IMG/VR virus record: IMGVR_UViG_3300006043_000050
Coordinates: 6,954-70,953 of that record
Reading direction: 5' to 3' (one strand)
Source: a virus
Length of the DNA stretch: 64,000 bases
The translations under genes were made by a program, and so were the position numbers. This document shows positions 38,726-45,008 of the stretch, one piece after another (the first letter of the stretch is position 1; each line of letters opens with the position of its first letter). Below the pieces are notes generated by a model, which was not told where the DNA came from, ran no database searches, and was given only the letters and a program-made list of their open reading frames with translations.

Positions 38726-39496
38726 ATGGCAACTCAGGACAAAGTCGCGCCGAAGATGGCGTTGTGGGAATCGGTGAAAACCACCGACAAGGCGTTCACC
38801 AAAACTCAGAAGCTGGAAGGCCGCGACGTTACCAGCATCAACGGCATGTATGTCGTTCAGCGCGCCACCGAGACTTTCGGCCCGATCGGCAAGGGCTGGG
38901 GCTACGAGATCCTTGCGGATCGCTTCGACCAGGGCGCCCCGATCAGGGACAAGAAGACTGGCGAAGTGATCGCCCATGAGCAGATGCACACCATCCTGCT
39001 GAAGCTCTGGTACGTGCATGGCGGCAAGCGGAACAACGTCACTCAGTACGGGCACACCCCTTTCGTTCGTGAAGGCTCATGGGGGCCATACACCGACTTC
39101 GATGCCCCTAAGAAGAGCCTCACCGATGCCATCAAAAAGTGCCTGAGCCTGCTCGGCTTCTGCGCTGACGTGCACCTCGGCATGTTCGAGGACGAGATCT
39201 ACCTGCAAGGACTCGAGCTGAAGAAGCGCCTGGAAGAAGCTGGCGAAAGCGGCAAACAGGAAGTCATGGACGAAGCCAAGGCAGCGTTCCGCGCATGGGT
39301 TGACACCCAGATCGAAGTTCTCGCCTCCACCAACAACCAGCGCGCGCTGGAAGCCATGCGCAAAAACATCTGCGAGAAGGCTCGCGAGAAAGCAAAGGTC
39401 GTGAACTACGACCCCGCCGACGTAGAGCGCCGCATCAACGAGGCCGCCGACGAGCGCCTGCAGTACCTCAACGACAAATACCCGACCGGTAAGTAA
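38726..39496 (+). CDS. Rad52/Sak-like single-strand annealing protein
   Basis: ATETFGPIGKGWG...DAPKKSLTDAIKKCLSLLGFCADVHLGMFED. Confidence 0.7.
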   Translation: MATQDKVAPKMALWESVKTTDKAFTKTQKLEGRDVTSINGMYVVQRATETFGPIGKGWGYEILADRFDQGAPIRDKKTGEVIAHEQMHTILLKLWYVHGGKRNNVTQYGHTPFVREGSWGPYTDFDAPKKSLTDAIKKCLSLLGFCADVHLGMFEDEIYLQGLELKKRLEEAGESGKQEVMDEAKAAFRAWVDTQIEVLASTNNQRALEAMRKNICEKAREKAKVVNYDPADVERRINEAADERLQYLNDKYPTGK

Positions 39497-39521
39497 CCCC
39501 GTCCATCACGGAGAAGCAGAC

Positions 39522-40589
39522 ATGACCATCATGAACCACGTGAACATCGAAACCGGCACCGTGAACATTGCCGTTTTCAACCAAACCGACGCTGCCCTGG
39601 CTGCGTTGCGCGAGAAGTATCAGGTCGTGCCTGATGCCAACACCGATGACGGCTATGCCTTCGTCAAGGACGGCATCAAGGAACTGACCACCCTTCGCAC
39701 CCGCCTCGAGGCAGTGCGCAAAGAGGTGAAGGAACCTTACTTGCAGGCCGGCCGAATCATCGACGCCGAAGCCAAGCGCATCACCACCGAGCTCACCACC
39801 CTGGAAGAGCCCATGAAGGCGGCCAAGAAAGTGGTAGACGACCGTGTCGAGCGCGAGCGCCAGGAGCGTATCGCCCGCCTGCAAGAGAAGGTCGACGCCA
39901 TCAAGGCAATGCCTGGCCAGGTTCGTGGCAAGAGCAGCGAAGAAATCGAAGCCATGATTGATCGCGTCGGTGAGATCGACGTCATGCATGACTTCTTCGA
40001 CCTCACCAGGGAAGCCGTAGCAGCCAAAGACGCAGCGATGAACGAGCTGACCCAGATGCTGGGCGAGCGCTTGGAGTTCGAGGTCAACGAGAAGGCACGC
40101 CTGCAGGCTGAAGCCGAGCGCGCCGAACTGCAACGCCAACTCAAGGCACAGCAGGAAGAGAACGATCGCATCCTGCGCGAGCAGCAAGCCGAAATGCAGC
40201 GCCAGCAGGACGAGATCAAGCGTCAGCAGCAGGAAATGCAGCGTCAGCAGGACGAAATGCGCCAGCAACGTGAAGCTCTGGACCGTGCCCAGGCCGCCCT
40301 GCAACAGCCTGCACCTGCCGCCGAAGTCGCCCAGGTCGAAGCGCCAGCCGAAGTGGTCGCAGCCAAACCGGCACCGGCAACCAGCAAGGCCAAGCCCGAC
40401 AACCGCCAGTGGCATGCAGTGGTTACCGACAAGTCCGCACTGATCGCCGCGATCGCCGCAGGCTTCGGCACCGAGGATCTGCTGATCGTCGACCAGGCCG
40501 CTCTCGACAGCCTGGCCAACGACAAGCGCAACAGCCTGGAACTGCCGGGCGTTGTCGCCCAGCCGGTACCGGCCACCCACGCCGCCTAA
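39522..40589 (+). CDS. Coiled-coil protein of the recombination module (DUF1351-like)
   Basis: 355 aa; RTRLEAVRKEVKEPYLQAGRIIDAEAKRI and a Gln-rich heptad repeat. Confidence 0.6.
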   Translation: MTIMNHVNIETGTVNIAVFNQTDAALAALREKYQVVPDANTDDGYAFVKDGIKELTTLRTRLEAVRKEVKEPYLQAGRIIDAEAKRITTELTTLEEPMKAAKKVVDDRVERERQERIARLQEKVDAIKAMPGQVRGKSSEEIEAMIDRVGEIDVMHDFFDLTREAVAAKDAAMNELTQMLGERLEFEVNEKARLQAEAERAELQRQLKAQQEENDRILREQQAEMQRQQDEIKRQQQEMQRQQDEMRQQREALDRAQAALQQPAPAAEVAQVEAPAEVVAAKPAPATSKAKPDNRQWHAVVTDKSALIAAIAAGFGTEDLLIVDQAALDSLANDKRNSLELPGVVAQPVPATHAA

Positions 40590-40663
40590 CCCAATCCCTG
40601 AATAACCGACCGCGCCGGCCCATCCGGCGTGGGTTGGGGTTCCTACACCCTGGAGTCACTGAA

Positions 40664-41242
40664 ATGTCCAATTTGATCAACGTATTCGACTTCGAAACCA
40701 CTGGCATTCCGGACTGGAAACAGCCCAGCGAAGCCGGCCACCAGCCTCATATCGTCGAGGTCGCCGCCCTGCTTTGCGACGCCGAAGGCAACATCAAAGA
40801 CCGCTACCAGGCGATCGTCCGCCCGAACGGCTGGGTCATCCCTGAAGAGTCGATCAAGCAGCACGGCATCACCATGGAACGGGCCATGGACGAGGGTATT
40901 CCCGAGGTCGAAGCCCTCGAAGGCTTCCTGGCAATCCACTCCCTGGCCAGTATCCGTGTCGCCCACAACGCCACCTTCGACGACCGTATCGCCCGTATCG
41001 CGATCGCCCGTTACCACGGCAAAGACCTTGCCGACAGCTTCAAGGAAACCACCGAGAAGTTCTGCACCTGCAATAGCTCGCGCGGCCCGGTAGGCCTGGG
41101 CAAGTTGCCAACCCTGGCCGAGGCCTACAAGCACTTCACTGGCGAAGACCTGGTGGAAGCCCACCGCGCCATGCCCGACGCCCTTGCCTGCGCACAAATT
41201 TACTTCGCCTTGAAAGGCATCCGCATGCCGGATGCCGCGTAA
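40664..41242 (+). CDS. DEDDh 3'-5' exonuclease (DnaQ-like)
   Basis: VFDFETTG, VAHNATFDD and AHRAMPDA motifs. Confidence 0.92.
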   Translation: MSNLINVFDFETTGIPDWKQPSEAGHQPHIVEVAALLCDAEGNIKDRYQAIVRPNGWVIPEESIKQHGITMERAMDEGIPEVEALEGFLAIHSLASIRVAHNATFDDRIARIAIARYHGKDLADSFKETTEKFCTCNSSRGPVGLGKLPTLAEAYKHFTGEDLVEAHRAMPDALACAQIYFALKGIRMPDAA

Positions 41243-41243
41243 C

Positions 41244-41545
41244 GGCCCGGATGGGCAGGGCACGGCAAGGCTAGGCACGGCCGGGCGCGGCAAGGGCTAC
41301 TCGATAGCGGTCTGGCGATTCACTGAGTCGCCTTTCCGGTGCCGAGAGGCATCACACGGCGGGACGTGCTCAGGCACGGCGAGCCGGGGCGAGGCGCGAC
41401 CAGGCAAGGGCTGTAACCAGCGGTCTGCCGATTCTTCGAGTCGGCTTTCCGGTGGCATCAACCACTAGCGGCATCGCATGTCCGGGCAAGGCGAGGCACC
41501 GCGGGGCGCCGCGCGGAATGGCGAGGCAAGGGCGCATAGCGCACA
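41244..41545 (+). ncRNA. Array of three GGC-NN pentamer-repeat RNA units with conserved hairpin linkers (candidate guide RNAs)
   Basis: 10, 10 and 12 pentamers starting at 41244, 41358 and 41470, each ending GGCAA-GGGC; 36-nt linkers at 41306-41341 and 41419-41454 are 31/36 identical with compensatory stem changes. Confidence 0.8.
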
Positions 41546-41564
41546 CATTCATTGGAGAAGTCAG

Positions 41565-42134
41565 ATGCAAACGATCAAGGTAAAAATCATCGGCACCCGT
41601 CCTCTGCTCATGCACAGCGACATTTTCGCCGATCCGCTGAACCCGCTGACCAAGGCGCACAAGGCGCTGACCAGCAAGCGGAAGAAAACCGACGAAGATC
41701 ATGAAGCGATCGCCCAGTCCGAATGGCGCGGTGGCATGTACTTCGATGAAGAGCTCGGCCCGTATGTCCCTGGCGTGAACATCGAATCAGCGATGGTCGC
41801 CGGCGGCAAGCTCTCCAAGATGGGTACCCAACTCAAGCGCTCCGTCGAGGTCATGGACGAGCGCTGCAAGCTTGAATACACCGGCCCTCGCACCGTTTCC
41901 GGTTTGTGGGAACAGCGTTTCTACGACGCACGCAGCGTGAAGGTGCAGACCGCACGCCTCACCCGCTACCGCCCTCTTTTCCGCGAATGGTCGCTGACCT
42001 GCGAGATTGCTTTCGACTCCGAGACGATCAACCGCGAGCAGGTCGTCAAGTGCCTCGAAGACGCCGGCCAATACTGCGGCATCGGCGACTATCGCCCGAA
42101 GTTCGGCCGCTTCTCGGTGGAGGTGCAGGCATGA
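41565..42134 (+). CDS. RAMP-superfamily (Cas7-like) protein
   Basis: ATG 41565 after GGAGA; N-terminal strand TIKVKIIGTRPLLMH, PYVPGVNIESAM (compare RAMP PxIPGSSxKG) and C-terminal G-loop GIGDYRPKFGRF. Confidence 0.78.
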   Translation: MQTIKVKIIGTRPLLMHSDIFADPLNPLTKAHKALTSKRKKTDEDHEAIAQSEWRGGMYFDEELGPYVPGVNIESAMVAGGKLSKMGTQLKRSVEVMDERCKLEYTGPRTVSGLWEQRFYDARSVKVQTARLTRYRPLFREWSLTCEIAFDSETINREQVVKCLEDAGQYCGIGDYRPKFGRFSVEVQA

Positions 42135-42619
42135 GCTCAACCACTTGGAGCCTGGCCGGCGCCGTCGAGAAGTTCATCGCTAACAACTTCAACGATGGCG
42201 ACCTGATCAGCCATGACTGGCTGTCCTGGGCGCTCGAACTTCCGACCCCGAAAACGGTTGATCAGGCGCGAGAAGCTCAGTTCGTCGCCATGAGCCGTAT
42301 CGAGGACTTCAAGCAAGCGCTGCTCGAAGACCACTGCATCTACATCGTGTCCGTCCGTGGCCAGGGTTACCGCATCGTGCCGCCACGCGACCAGGCGCGC
42401 CTGGCAGCAGCTCGCGCCCTTCAGGCAACCCGTCGCGAAGTGGCGACCTGCCAGAAGGTCATGACCAAGACGCGCACAACACTGCTCAGCACAGACGAAA
42501 TGCGCCGCCACACCGACACCCAACTCAAGATCGCCGCCTTGTCCGGGATGCTCGACAAGAGCGGTCGCAACATCTTCGCCCTCTTCGACGGCAACAAGTC
42601 CTCTAACCAGGGAGCGTGA
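42131..42619 (+). CDS. Winged-helix-like / helical accessory protein coupled to the RAMP gene
   Basis: ATGA overlap; IVSVRGQGYRIV resembles a wHTH wing; long C-terminal helices. Confidence 0.6.
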   Translation: MSSTTWSLAGAVEKFIANNFNDGDLISHDWLSWALELPTPKTVDQAREAQFVAMSRIEDFKQALLEDHCIYIVSVRGQGYRIVPPRDQARLAAARALQATRREVATCQKVMTKTRTTLLSTDEMRRHTDTQLKIAALSGMLDKSGRNIFALFDGNKSSNQGA

Positions 42620-43035
42620 TCATGCACCACGAAACAACACTCAACCTGCCGTCCCCTTCCTCGAAGGAAGCCGAGCGCCAGTGGCTGGCCGACAAGTTGG
42701 CCGAGTTTCAGGCCCGGGGCGCGCAGGCAATTGAAGCACCGATCGAGAAGCGCCCACTGGTCAGCGGCCAGTGGCGCTCTTCCGACATGACGATCATCAC
42801 CGAGGGGCGCCGCCATGAGCAGGCCGCAAAGGCCCACCGCAAGGCGGGCGGCCGCCCCATCGGCGCCGTAGTCGTCGACAGCCCTGCCCTGGTCGAGCGC
42901 GCCCGCGCCATGGCTGGCCTGGGCCTCTCCAAGTATGCCGCCTCCCGCGCACTTGAGATCGGCACCGTGCGCCTTGAGCGCATGGCCAAGAAGCACGGTT
43001 TCCAGTTCGCCACCAAATCCCCTAAAGCCGCCTGA
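42616..43035 (+). CDS. Hypothetical protein with C-terminal HTH-like segment
   Basis: 139 aa; [29 protein letters not shown]. Confidence 0.6.
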
Positions 43036-43045
43036 GGACACAGCC

Positions 43046-43966
43046 ATGTGGTTCCGTAACCTGCTGATTTACCGCCTCACACAAGCCATCGAACTTGCCG
43101 CCGAAGCGCTGGAAGTCGCCCTGGCCAGCAAGCCCGCCCGCACCTGCGAAAGCCAGGAAATGACCACCTACGGTTTCGCCGCACCGTTCGGCAAGGGCGA
43201 CAACGCGCCCCTGGTGCACGCCGTCGAAGGCATGCTGCTGATCAGCACCCGCAAGCAAGAACGCATTCTGCCCGGCTCCGTAGTGCGTGACGCACTGAAG
43301 GAGAAGGTCGACGAGATCGAAGACACCCAGATGCGCAAGGTCTTCAAGAAGGAGCGCGACCAGCTCAAGGACGAGATCGTGCAGGCCTTCCTGCCGCGCG
43401 CCTTCATCCGCAAGTCCAGCACCTACGCAGCAATCGACCCGGCAGCGGGCCTGATCTACGTCGACGCCAGTTCGCCGAAGCGCGCCGAGGATCTGCTGTC
43501 GACCCTGCGCGAATGCCTTGGCTCCCTGCCTATCCGCCCGGTGTCCGTGAAGATCGCCCCCACCGCCACCCTGACCGATTGGCTCAAGCAGCAGAAGGCG
43601 GCCGAAGGCTTCGCCGTGCTCGACGAATGCGACCTACGCGACACCCACGCCGAAGGCGGCAGCATCGCGGCCAAGCATCAGGATCTGACCAGCGAAGAGA
43701 TCCAGTTGCACCTGTCCACCGGCAAACAGGCCACCAAGCTCTCCCTGGCCTGGCAGGACAAGCTGTCGTTTGTCCTCGACGACAAGCTGCAGATCAAGCG
43801 CCTGCGCTTCGAAGACCTGCTGACCGACCAGGCCGCGCAGGACGGCGGCGACGACGCCCAGTCCCAACAGTCCGCCAGCTTCTTCCTGATGATGCGCACC
43901 TTCCGCGACTTCGTTCCCGAACTGCTCACCGCCCTGGGCGGCGAAGAAGTGCCCACCGGTATCTGA
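43046..43966 (+). CDS. rdgC: Recombination-associated protein RdgC
   Basis: [11 protein letters not shown]...[10 protein letters not shown]...[15 protein letters not shown]...[18 protein letters not shown]. Confidence 0.95.
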
Positions 43967-43994
43967 CCAGCCAGCAGCGAACAGGAAAATCATC

Positions 43995-45008
43995 ATGCCT
44001 ATCCGTCACAGCATCATCCATCTGATCGATAAGAAGCCCGATGGCAGCCCTTCCGTGCTGCATGCCGTCGCCCACGCACTGCCTGACTCGCAGGCACGCG
44101 ACAACCTGCTGACCGATCTGAACGAGACCTACAACGCCAAGCCAGGCAAGGCCTGGGGCCTGTTCCATGAGGAATCTGGCGCCTATCCGCTCAGCGGCTG
44201 GCTGCGCGATTACCTCGATGGCAAGCAGGACTTCGTCGCCTTCAGCCGTGTGGCCGTCGAGCACCTGCAGAAGCTGATGGAGGAATCCAACCTTACCGTT
44301 GGCGGTCACGCCATGTTCACCCACTACCAGCAAGGCATGACCGAATACCTGGCCATTGCCCTGCTGCACCACAGCGAAGGCGTGACGATCACCGAAGACC
44401 TCGAAGTTGTGCCGGCCAAGCACCTCGACCTGACCCAACTGCACCTGGCCGCGCGCATCAACCTGAGCGAATGGCGCAACAACCCGAACTCGCGCCAGTA
44501 CATTTCGTTCATCAAGGGCAAGGGCGGTCGCCGCGTCTGTGACTACTTCCGCGACTTCATCGGCTGCCAGGAAGGCATCGACGCCCCCGGCGAAACCCGC
44601 ACCCTACTCAAGGCGTTCAGCGACTTTATCGAGAGCGAAGATCTGCCGGAAGAGTCCACCCGCGAGAAAACCAACACCCTGGTGGGCTACGCCACCAGCC
44701 AGGCCAAGTTGGGCGAGCCTATCAGCCTGGAAGAACTGGCCGCACTGATCGACGAGGAACGCCCAGCCGCGTTCTATGAGTTCATCCGCAACAAGGACTA
44801 TGGCCTGTCGCCTGAAATCCCTGCGGATAAACGCACCCTAAATCAGTTCCGCCGCTTCACCGCGCGCACCGAAGGCCTATCGCTCAGCTTCGAGGCACAC
44901 CTGCTGGGCAACAAGGTCGAGTTTGACCAGGCGCGTAACCAACTGGTGATCCGCAACCTGCCGACCCAACTGGTCGACCAGCTCAAGCGCGCAGGTGCTT
45001 CCTCATGA
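43995..45008 (+). CDS. yejK: Nucleoid-associated protein YejK/NdpA
   Basis: [17 protein letters not shown]...[12 protein letters not shown]...[23 protein letters not shown]. Confidence 0.93.

What the first reader, a model, noticed from the sequence alone, without database searches (positions are those of the whole stretch)
41244..41545. Three-unit GGC-NN pentamer array: candidate non-contiguous guide RNAs
Starting 1 nt after the exonuclease stop: unit 1 GGCCC GGATG GGCAG GGCAC GGCAA GGCTA GGCAC GGCCG GGCGC GGCAA; unit 2 GGCGG GACGT GCTCA GGCAC GGCGA GCCGG GGCGA GGCGC GACCA GGCAA; unit 3 GGCAT CGCAT GTCCG GGCAA GGCGA GGCAC CGCGG GGCGC CGCGC GGAAT GGCGA GGCAA. GGC opens 22 of 32 pentamers in strict 5-nt phase while the last two bases vary, and every unit ends GGCAAGGGC. 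Units 1 and 2 are followed by a 36-nt linker whose only five differences are a compensatory pair (GGCGA/TCGCC versus GCCGA/TCGGC) and three loop bases, which points to selection on RNA structure. With a RAMP gene immediately downstream, the simplest model is that one protomer grips each GGC and presents the NN for pairing. This matches my recollection of a recently reported phage system called VIPR (GGY/NN repeats plus a RAMP protein); I cannot verify that here, and if correct this would be a new member rather than a new class.
Basis: partly seen in the sequence, partly recalled or inferred. Interest (0 to 1): 0.95.

Follow-up and report, generated by a model that had tools for sequence, protein, structure and literature searches.

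The report
Phage VIPR guide-RNA locus, type II
This is a real member of the recently described phage VIPR system: three gapped GGY/NN guide RNAs, a Vipr RAMP protein and its accessory gene. Two of the three guides have clear predicted targets in rival phages.

Summary

**Identity**
- The protein at 41565-42134 matches the solved SUSP1 Vipr protein over its full length (PDB 36pp, E 1e-51). The GGY-contacting residues are kept.
- The next gene is a vap1 homologue.
- The three tracts are the only places in 128 kb (both strands) with 6 or more in-phase GGY per 10 pentamers.

**Comparison with relatives**
- Across 43 related guides, GGY is conserved (0.4-1.1 bits entropy) and NN is near-random (1.95-1.98 bits).
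- Tails 1 and 2 fold into three hairpins with strong covariation. Unit 3 keeps only the first hairpin.

**New here: predicted targets under the published 1-nt-skip rule**
- **vrRNA2** matches exactly, at 120 or more viral contigs. Every match is in frame on the peptide GVQT[E/D]GDAQ of a virion-module gene of unrelated prophages. The backwards control gave 0 hits.
- **vrRNA1** matches the 3' end of the exonuclease gene in eight sibling phages. At least three of them lack the cassette at that junction. The window's own allele escapes (14/20).
- **vrRNA3**: no target found.

**Verdict:** a new member of a known kind (type II VIPR, in a prophage of the Pseudomonas mendocina group), not a new class. 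Interest is moderate.

The parts
40664..41242 (+). DnaQ/RNase T-like exonuclease gene, the left flank of the cassette. Its last codons (41189-41217, peptide AQIYFALKG) are the window's own allele of the site that vrRNA1 matches in sibling phages. That allele is predicted to escape.
   Evidence: Pfam RNase_T 5.8e-15; phrog_192 4e-35. Own site scores 14/20 against 18/20 in L157-L164.
41244..41293 (+). vrRNA1 guide: 10 pentamers, 9 GGC and 1 GGA. NN string: CC TG AG AC AA TA AC CG GC, then the constant AA.
   Evidence: The sibling loci L009 and L010 carry GC instead of AC in unit 4.
   Evidence: Covariance model R1, 66.7 bits, E 6e-15. Covariation in 30 tails.
41358..41407 (+). vrRNA2 guide: 10 pentamers, 6 of them GGC. 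NN string: GG GT CA AC GA GG GA GC CA, then the constant AA.
   Evidence: Exact 1-nt-skip matches on at least 120 viral contigs.
41408..41468 (+). vrRNA2 handle and 3' tail (P1, P2, P3).
   Evidence: R1, 65.5 bits, E 1e-14. L010 shows a G-C to A-U double change in P2.
41470..41529 (+). vrRNA3 guide: 12 pentamers, 7 of them GGC. No target found.
41530..41545 (+). vrRNA3 handle with a short tail. Only hairpin P1 (GCGC-ATA-GCGC) is present, and it runs straight into the vipr ribosome-binding site.
   Evidence: Read from the sequence. No R1 match here. The last units of L002, L012 and L023 likewise keep P1 followed by a different sequence.
41565..42134 (+). vipr: 189-aa Vipr RAMP protein.
   Evidence: PDB 36pp_D 'SUSP1 Vipr protein', E 1e-51. 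phrog_4652 1e-75. 487 homologues at E <= 1e-10.
42131..42619 (+). vap1 homologue, 162 aa. Its start overlaps the vipr stop.
   Evidence: Found directly after vipr in more than 20 related loci. 28% identity, E 7e-8, to a phiSUSP1 gene at KT454805.2 28034-28462. phrog_5926 3e-39.
42616..43035 (+). orf139, the right flank of the cassette. In sibling phages it follows the exonuclease gene after only about 40-60 bp.

Best explanation
This is a type II VIPR module carried as a roughly 1.4-kb accessory cassette in the early recombination/replication region of a prophage of the Pseudomonas mendocina (Ectopseudomonas) group.

**How it works (from the published homologues, inferred for this locus)**
- The + strand is transcribed through three vrRNAs, vipr and vap1. 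No sigma-70-like promoter was found in the cassette, so read-through from the early operon is likely.
- Each vrRNA is a run of 10-12 GGY-NN pentamers. It is capped by the constant GGCAA-GGGC handle and a structured tail.
- Vipr protomers polymerise along the RNA, one per pentamer. They hold each GGY and expose each NN.
- The filament reads double-stranded DNA with one skipped base per dinucleotide and blocks transcription there. Vap1 assists.

**Predicted targets here (computed here, function inferred)**
- **vrRNA2** reads codon positions 1-2 of the invariant peptide GVQT[E/D]GDAQ. That peptide lies in a virion-module protein of a widespread family of unrelated prophages of about 40 kb. Synonymous changes therefore cannot give escape.
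- **vrRNA1** reads the last codons (ARVYFALQG) of the exonuclease gene in sibling phages. Three of the eight demonstrably lack the cassette at that junction.
- The carrier's own allele (AQIYFALKG) is not matched.
- The vrRNA3 target is unknown.
For: **Vipr homology**
- Full-length match to the solved SUSP1 Vipr, E 1e-51.
- In that alignment the GGY-contacting residues named in the cryo-EM paper are kept: H17, R138 and D177. W178 is replaced by Tyr.

**vap1**
- It is syntenic in more than 20 loci and matches the phiSUSP1 gene.

**Tracts**
- Phased GGY tracts are unique to this spot in the window.
- They lie beside vipr on the same strand in 25 of 27 foreign loci.
- NN is hypervariable and GGY conserved.

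**Tail**
- 98% of cells are paired, against 32-64% when partners are slid.
- 76 double-change cells, against 25.7 in shuffles (0 of 500 shuffles reach it).

**vrRNA2 target**
- All are in one frame on one peptide, in loci of 35-70% GC.
- The same pattern read backwards gave 0 hits. The vr1 and vr3 patterns of 18 bases also gave 0 hits.
- All four of its nine variable units that are not GGY still have matching NN.

**vrRNA1 target**
- All 8 hits of a 17-base pattern fall on the same site of the exonuclease homologue in relatives.
- Homology between the window and L161 or L163 stops at 41209-41230 and resumes at 42621. Only about 40-60 bp lie between in those phages.

**RNA libraries**
- Contigs from RNA-seq libraries of four studies span the array, vipr and vap1 of a 95-99% identical relative.
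Against: - No experiment on this locus exists. The RNA-library contigs show presence only, not transcription, ends or strand.
- vrRNA2 and vrRNA3 carry 4 and 5 non-GGY pentamers, against roughly 80% perfect units in the family. The discovery paper reports that disturbing GGY abolished silencing.
- The window's vrRNA1 has one mismatch (A for G) to all eight sites. The exact matcher is the L009/L010 version.
- Exact vrRNA2 targets with named hosts are in Stenotrophomonas and Achromobacter prophages. In 400 Pseudomonas-genus species representatives there was no exact site.
- The 3-4 family members found in 300 of those genomes carry G[T/P]QT variants scoring 14-16 of 18. A target in the actual host group is therefore not shown.
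- The eight vrRNA1 targets were found through the pattern itself. The link between 'cassette absent' and 'target allele' is therefore ascertained, not sampled.
- No target was found for vrRNA3.
Confidence: 0.85

Rival explanations
1. It is a VIPR locus by descent that is partly decayed. vrRNA1 may work, while vrRNA2 and vrRNA3, with 40% of their pentamers no longer GGY and a truncated tail on vrRNA3, would be relics that no longer load Vipr efficiently.
For: 6/10 and 7/12 GGC units, against about 94/91/93% G, G, Y per position in 43 related guides. vrRNA3 keeps only hairpin P1. GGY perturbation abolished silencing in the published assays.
Against: All nine variable NN of vrRNA2 still match the target exactly, including the four units with a degenerate triplet. 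This is not expected for a drifting relic. [quoted passage not shown] Short last-unit tails recur in L002, L012 and L023. vipr and vap1 are intact.
Confidence: 0.1
2. It is a working VIPR locus, but the predicted targets are wrong. The matches to the GVQT[E/D]GDAQ gene and to sibling exonuclease genes would be by-products of codon-periodic conserved motifs. The true targets would then lie elsewhere, for example in regulators of resident prophages of the real host, as reported for the P. fulva clade.
For: No exact vrRNA2 site in 400 Pseudomonas-genus genomes. Named hosts of exact targets belong to other genera. vrRNA3 has no target. The actual host pangenome could not be searched.
Against: At least 120 hits against 0 for the backwards control, and 0 for two other 18-base guide patterns. 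All 8 vrRNA1 hits fall on one homologous site in relatives of this very phage, at the edge of the cassette, with the own allele diverged. Chance hits, as seen for vrRNA3, are scattered over unrelated genes.
Confidence: 0.2
3. It is not an RNA guide array at all. It would instead be a DNA-level repeat (protein-binding iterons or a recombination site), or the coding sequence of a small peptide (ORFs 41232-41468 and 41452-41583).
For: Mechanical ORFs overlap the region. GC-rich short repeats can serve as binding sites.
Against: The 5-nt period is out of step with codons. L010 differs by a whole-pentamer indel and rewritten NN with unchanged flanks. The tails show RNA-type covariation including G-U. 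The neighbouring protein is a homologue of a protein solved in complex with just such RNA.
Confidence: 0.02

Closest known systems
Pseudomonas fulva prophage VIPR (type II), bioRxiv 10.64898/2026.04.26.720920 and 10.64898/2026.04.26.720927
   Same: Same gene order (vrRNA1-3, vipr, vap1), same prophage setting in the Pseudomonas group, and guides of 10-12 units. The published complexes have 10-11 subunits. The published role is repression of competing prophages.
   Different: The named members of this Vipr's 90% cluster and of the vap1 cluster are all from the P. mendocina group (Ectopseudomonas) or unnamed Pseudomonas species. None is from P. fulva. This locus is therefore probably outside the >90% 'P. 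fulva clade'. Published targets of that clade are mainly lysis-lysogeny regulators of resident prophages. Here the predicted targets are a virion-module gene and the exonuclease gene of siblings.
Escherichia phage SUSP1 VIPR (type II; PDB 36pp)
   Same: Vipr is about 47% identical over its full length with the GGY-reading residues kept. A vap1 homologue is present. It shows the GGY/NN code with a structured 3' tail, and targeting of conserved codon-periodic sites in rivals (bioRxiv 10.64898/2026.10.15.759431).
   Different: SUSP1 is a lytic myovirus with one vrRNA upstream and three downstream of the genes, and a pseudoknotted tail. Here all three vrRNAs are upstream. The tail is three hairpins (no pseudoknot was sought rigorously), and the last unit has a short tail. 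SUSP1 guides aim mostly at a satellite.
Class 1 CRISPR Cas7 (RAMP) backbone filaments
   Same: A RAMP protein polymerises on a guide RNA, and its thumb flips out bases at a fixed period.
   Different: There are no cas genes, no CRISPR repeats and no spacer acquisition. The period is 5 nt with only 2 nt read. It recognises double-stranded DNA with a skipped base and has no nuclease.

Membership tests
VIPR (type II) | Vipr protein: a minimal RAMP homologous to characterised Vipr | tested here: met
   PDB 36pp_D SUSP1 Vipr, E 1e-51, query 1-188 to chain 1-190. tblastn hits to 136 phage records including SUSP1-like phages.
VIPR (type II) | Residues that read G1 and G2 of GGY (SUSP1 H17, D177, R138, W178) | tested here: met
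   In the HMMER alignment, H17, R138 and D177 are identical and W178 aligns with Tyr (aromatic).
VIPR (type II) | vrRNA made of at least 4 (typically 9-16) tandem YNNGG/GGYNN pentamers next to vipr | tested here: met
   10, 10 and 12 units. These are the only tracts with 6 or more in-phase GGY per 10 pentamers in 128 kb.
VIPR (type II) | GGY conserved and NN hypervariable among related loci | tested here: met
   Entropy of 0.42/0.59/1.08 bits against 1.95/1.98 bits in 43 unique guides. L010 has rewritten NN with identical tails.
VIPR (type II) | Invariable, structured 3' tail after the repeat tract | tested here: met
   Met for vrRNA1 and vrRNA2: R1 hits at E 6e-15 and 1e-14, with covariation at 0/500 shuffles. 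vrRNA3 keeps only the first hairpin. The SUSP1-type pseudoknot was not tested.
VIPR (type II) | vap1 accessory gene beside vipr | tested here: met
   Syntenic in more than 20 loci. Matches the phiSUSP1 gene at E 7e-8. That this phiSUSP1 gene is the published vap1 is inferred from its position next to vipr.
VIPR (type II) | Carried by a phage or prophage, with no cas genes or CRISPR array | tested here: met
   The record is an IMG/VR provirus of 79 kb. Neighbours are phage exonucleases and recombination genes. No Rfam or CRISPR hit in 40000-44000.
VIPR (type II) | vrRNAs of about 100 nt are made and co-purify with Vipr | not testable with these tools
   The only data are RNA-library contigs covering a 95-99% relative. 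These show presence, not processing or binding.
VIPR (type II) | Natural targets obey the 1-nt-skip rule, with the skip base on the codon wobble position | tested here: met
   vrRNA2: at least 120 exact in-frame sites. vrRNA1: 8 sites, 17/18. vrRNA3: none. Other skip lengths were compared only inside the window, not in the collections.

The most novel reading that the evidence does not exclude
The vrRNA-vipr-vap1 cassette may behave as a selfish insertion that polices its own empty site.

- vrRNA1 is aimed at the last codons of the exonuclease gene exactly where the cassette begins.
- It matches the allele found in sibling phages, three of which demonstrably lack the cassette at that junction.
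- It spares the diverged allele linked to the cassette.
- In a mixed infection, or on superinfection of a lysogen, cassette-less siblings would have their early operon silenced. This would be a guide-encoded form of marker exclusion.
- vrRNA2 would extend the same weapon to an unrelated prophage family through an invariant peptide motif that cannot escape by synonymous change.
Probability: 0.35. Interest if true: 0.6.

Novelty: new member of a known kind. Interest (0 to 1): 0.4.

Why it matters
VIPR was described only in 2026, and few natural systems have mapped targets. This locus adds a prophage-borne type II system from the P. mendocina group with two concrete, testable target predictions.

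- One target is an invariant peptide-coding site in a virion gene that is shared by prophages of many hosts.
- The other is the cassette's own empty-site flank in sibling phages.

Both illustrate how a code that skips the wobble base can lock on to protein-constrained sequence. They also suggest that VIPR cassettes compete at the level of phage alleles as well as whole elements.

For annotation, it shows that phrog_4652 and phrog_5926, still listed as 'unknown function', mark vipr and vap1.

Tried and rejected
- **Family searches.** Pfam gave nothing for Vipr or Vap1. Rfam gave nothing for the array.
- **Promoters.** No sigma-70-like promoter or terminator in the cassette.
- **Exact scans.** The window's own vrRNA1 (18 bases) and vrRNA3 units 3-11 (18 bases) gave 0 hits in viral contigs.
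- **vrRNA3 sub-patterns.**
  - Two 16-base sub-patterns gave 40 and 32 hits scattered over unrelated genes, about what chance gives. The best extension was 20-21 of 24.
  - A small cluster on an 'IIRKETGAPRA' protein in ~45% GC contigs does not extend.
  - The single metagenome hit (20 bases) lies in an unrelated protein, and its number is near chance.
- **vrRNA2 in Pseudomonas.** In 400 Pseudomonas-genus genomes the 7 one-mismatch hits are unrelated frames, not the target family.
- **The target protein.** No Pfam or PHROG family. Only one record in the cultured-phage collection. 'DNA transfer protein / Inj_translocase' is a lead from one UniRef name and a language-model neighbour, not a finding.
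- **Vipr in Pseudomonadaceae.** A family-wide sample of 401 genomes holds Vipr only in the genome already known.
- **Other vrRNA tails.** None in the provirus flanks or in the eight vrRNA1-target phages.
- **Other guides.** No other guide from the 27 related loci hits the fetched target loci at 17/18 or better.
- **P. fulva sequence.** The paper's supplements are not held, so I could not compare with it.
- **Not run.** Structure prediction and complex prediction, because the sequence match to a solved Vipr made them unnecessary.

Full report
**1. The observation**

The region reads exactly as described.
- The exonuclease gene stops at 41240-41242.
- One base later, three tracts of GGC-led pentamers begin at 41244 (10 units), 41358 (10 units) and 41470 (12 units).
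- GGC opens 9, 6 and 7 of them.
- Each tract ends GGCAA followed by GGGC.

I counted in-phase GGY over ten consecutive pentamers at every position of both strands. Only these three tracts reach six or more, and the first reaches nine. No other position in the window exceeds five. The pentamer phasing is therefore real and unique in 128 kb.

**2. What the literature says**

Three preprints describe VIPR:
- The discovery paper (10.64898/2026.04.26.720920) reports a minimal RAMP protein, Vipr. It reports vrRNAs of 9-16 GGY/NN pentamers followed by an invariable structured 3' tail, and an accessory gene, vap.
- In those vrRNAs the NN dinucleotides read double-stranded DNA with one skipped base per unit. 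Binding represses transcription.
- The cryo-EM paper (10.64898/2026.04.26.720927) shows one protomer per repeat. G1 is read by H17 and D177. G2 is held by R138 and W178.
- Type II is exemplified by phage SUSP1 and by a Pseudomonas fulva prophage. The cloned P. fulva locus is 'vrRNA1-3, vipr, vap1', the order seen here.

**3. The proteins**

*Vipr.* The 189-aa product of 41565-42134 has no Pfam family.
- It matches the chain deposited as 'SUSP1 Vipr protein' (PDB 36pp_D) at E 1e-51 over its whole length.
- In that alignment H17, R138 and D177 are identical, and W178 aligns with Tyr.
- It is phrog_4652, listed as unknown function.
- It has 487 homologues at E <= 1e-10, all 'hypothetical'.

*Vap1.* The next gene (42131-42619) overlaps the vipr stop.
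- It follows vipr in more than twenty related loci.
- It matches a phiSUSP1 gene at E 7e-8. It is phrog_5926.

*Setting.* The record is an IMG/VR provirus of 79 kb.
- The neighbours are phage exonucleases, a recombination exonuclease and a nucleoid-associated protein.
- Named members of the two 90% clusters come from Ectopseudomonas mendocina, E. khazarica and unnamed Pseudomonas species. None comes from P. fulva.

**4. The RNA, by comparison**

I fetched 27 foreign loci encoding relatives of Vipr at 32-99% identity.

*Guides.*
- 25 of the 27 carry phased GGY tracts on the vipr strand beside the gene.
- The sibling provirus L010 (Vipr 99%) has identical flanks and near-identical tails. The NN strings of units 2 and 3 are completely different, and one guide is a pentamer longer.
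- L010 also shows a G-C to A-U double change in the tail hairpin.
- Over 43 unique guides, the entropy per position is 0.42, 0.59 and 1.08 bits for G, G, Y. It is 1.95 and 1.98 bits for N, N.
- The last unit before the handle is constant, GGCAA.

*Tails.* An alignment of 30 tails folds into three hairpins:
- P1, directly after GGGC.
- P2, with an outer 2-bp and an inner 5-bp stem.
- P3, often closed by a GNRA loop.

Controls on that fold:
- 98% of cells are paired, against 32-64% when partners are slid.
- There are 76 double-change cells, against 25.7 in shuffles. None of 500 shuffles reaches the observed covariation.
- A covariance model built from it finds exactly two tails in the window, 41294-41355 and 41408-41468. 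It finds none in the provirus flanks.

*Unit 3.* It keeps only P1 (GCGC-ATA-GCGC) before the vipr ribosome-binding site. The last units of L002, L012 and L023 likewise keep P1 followed by a different sequence.

*Other searches.* Rfam 15 has no family for this RNA. No sigma-70-like promoter lies in the cassette, so read-through from the early operon is the simplest inference.

**5. Predicted targets under the published rule** (GGY replaced by one free base; both strands)

*vrRNA2.*
- The nine variable units (18 specified bases) match at least 120 viral contigs exactly.
- Every match is in one reading frame on the peptide GVQT[E/D]GDAQ, with the skipped base on the wobble position. The loci range from 35 to 70% GC.
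- The same pattern read backwards gives 0 hits. Two other 18-base guide patterns also give 0.
- The peptide sits in an invariant block (LRLNKGVQTEGDAQRA) of a 340-690-aa protein with no Pfam or PHROG family.
- In L056 that gene lies just upstream of an 806-aa lysozyme-domain protein and tail-fibre genes.
- Named hosts are Stenotrophomonas and Achromobacter. One UniRef entry calls it 'DNA transfer protein'. A language-model neighbour is the P22 injection family (a lead only).
- The family is nearly absent from cultured phages and absent from this window.
- It occurs in 3-4 of 300 Pseudomonas-genus species representatives, as G[T/P]QT variants that score 14-16 of 18.
- The four vrRNA2 units whose triplet is not GGY still have matching NN. 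This argues that they are read.
- The constant terminal AA does not match, so it belongs to the handle.

*vrRNA1.*
- The window's own version has no exact hit.
- With the one base that differs from L009 and L010 left free, eight contigs match.
- All eight carry the L009/L010 base. All eight fall on the same site, antisense to the last codons (ARVYFALQG) of the homologue of the exonuclease gene that precedes the array. The phages are related, with exonuclease 52-82% identical.
- The window's guide scores 17/18 there. Its own allele (AQIYFALKG, 41189-41217) scores 14/20.
- In L161 and L163, nucleotide homology to the window stops at 41209-41230 and resumes at 42621, with only about 40-60 bp between. 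L160 has a different insert of about 0.8 kb.
- In these three phages the exonuclease gene is followed by the homologue of orf139, with no vipr or vap1 match. For the other five this was not established.
- None of the eight has a vrRNA tail in the stretch fetched.
- The array-vipr-vap1 unit is thus a roughly 1.4-kb indel at this junction. vrRNA1 is aimed at the allele seen at the empty site.

*vrRNA3.* No credible target was found.

*Self-matches inside the window.* The best scores are vr1 16/20 at 44489-44517, vr2 15/20 and vr3 16/24. Only the first is unusual (P about 0.03 by unit-order shuffles).

**6. Expression**

Seven RNA-seq libraries hold more than half of the sampled words. I laid contigs from four of them, each from a different study.
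- The contigs are 0.2-4.9 kb long and span the array, vipr and vap1 of a 95-99% identical relative.
- That relative has the L009-type vrRNA1, a rewritten vrRNA2 guide and a 273-nt insertion at 42615.
- This is compatible with transcription through the cassette. Contigs show no ends or strand, and DNA carry-over cannot be excluded.

**7. Verdict**

The locus passes every defining VIPR feature that can be tested in silico.
- It is a new member of a known kind, probably a P. mendocina-group lineage outside the published >90% P. fulva clade. I could not compare sequences with that clade.
- The mechanism (filament on GGY, NN read with a skipped base, repression) is taken from the published homologues and inferred for this locus.
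- The two target assignments are computed here, and their biological effect is inferred.
- Open points: the degenerate triplets of vrRNA2 and vrRNA3, the one-base mismatch of vrRNA1, the missing vrRNA3 target, and the lack of an exact vrRNA2 target in the host group.

Noticed in passing
window 44489-44517 (- strand), inside 43995-45008: vrRNA1 matches its own prophage at 16/20 NN under the 1-nt-skip rule, inside a nucleoid-associated-protein gene (phrog_3767). Unit-order shuffles reach this score in 3% of trials. The published clades showed no self-hit at 80% or more, so this is either chance or a weak self-site.
   Followed up: partly
L160:5815-6591, compared with window 41230-42621: The junction between the exonuclease gene and orf139 holds a different insert of about 0.8 kb in L160. 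It holds nothing in L161 or L163. The junction looks like a hot spot for accessory cassettes in this phage group.
   Followed up: no
L002:2250-2322, L012:2140-2198, L001:2429-2480: The tail model finds tail-like elements upstream of the first guide tract in three related arrays. These were not in the training set. Some arrays therefore start with a tail, whereas in the window the first guide abuts the exonuclease stop codon.
   Followed up: no
L239-L242 (Pseudomonas-genus genomes G496, G613, G526, G563): Pseudomonas copies of the vrRNA2 target family carry GTQT or GPQT instead of GVQT, and often V or A instead of the final Q. This lowers the guide match to 14-16 of 18. It could be lineage divergence or escape from VIPR-type targeting.
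   Followed up: partly
window 41356-41404 and 42615, in RNA-library contigs of runs X4, X5, X16: A 95-99% identical relative present in RNA-seq libraries of several unrelated coded organisms has a rewritten vrRNA2 guide with unchanged tails. It also has a 273-nt insertion after vap1. The prophage's host seems to be a common companion or contaminant of those cultures.
   Followed up: no
window 41565-42619: PHROGs v4 lists phrog_4652 (Vipr) and phrog_5926 (Vap1) as 'unknown function', and Pfam has no model for either. Rfam 15 has no vrRNA family. Current annotation pipelines will therefore miss VIPR loci.
   Followed up: yes
window 38726-45008: The cassette sits among three exonuclease-type genes (phrog_7838, phrog_192, phrog_724) and a nucleoid-associated protein. 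This is an early recombination module.
   Followed up: partly
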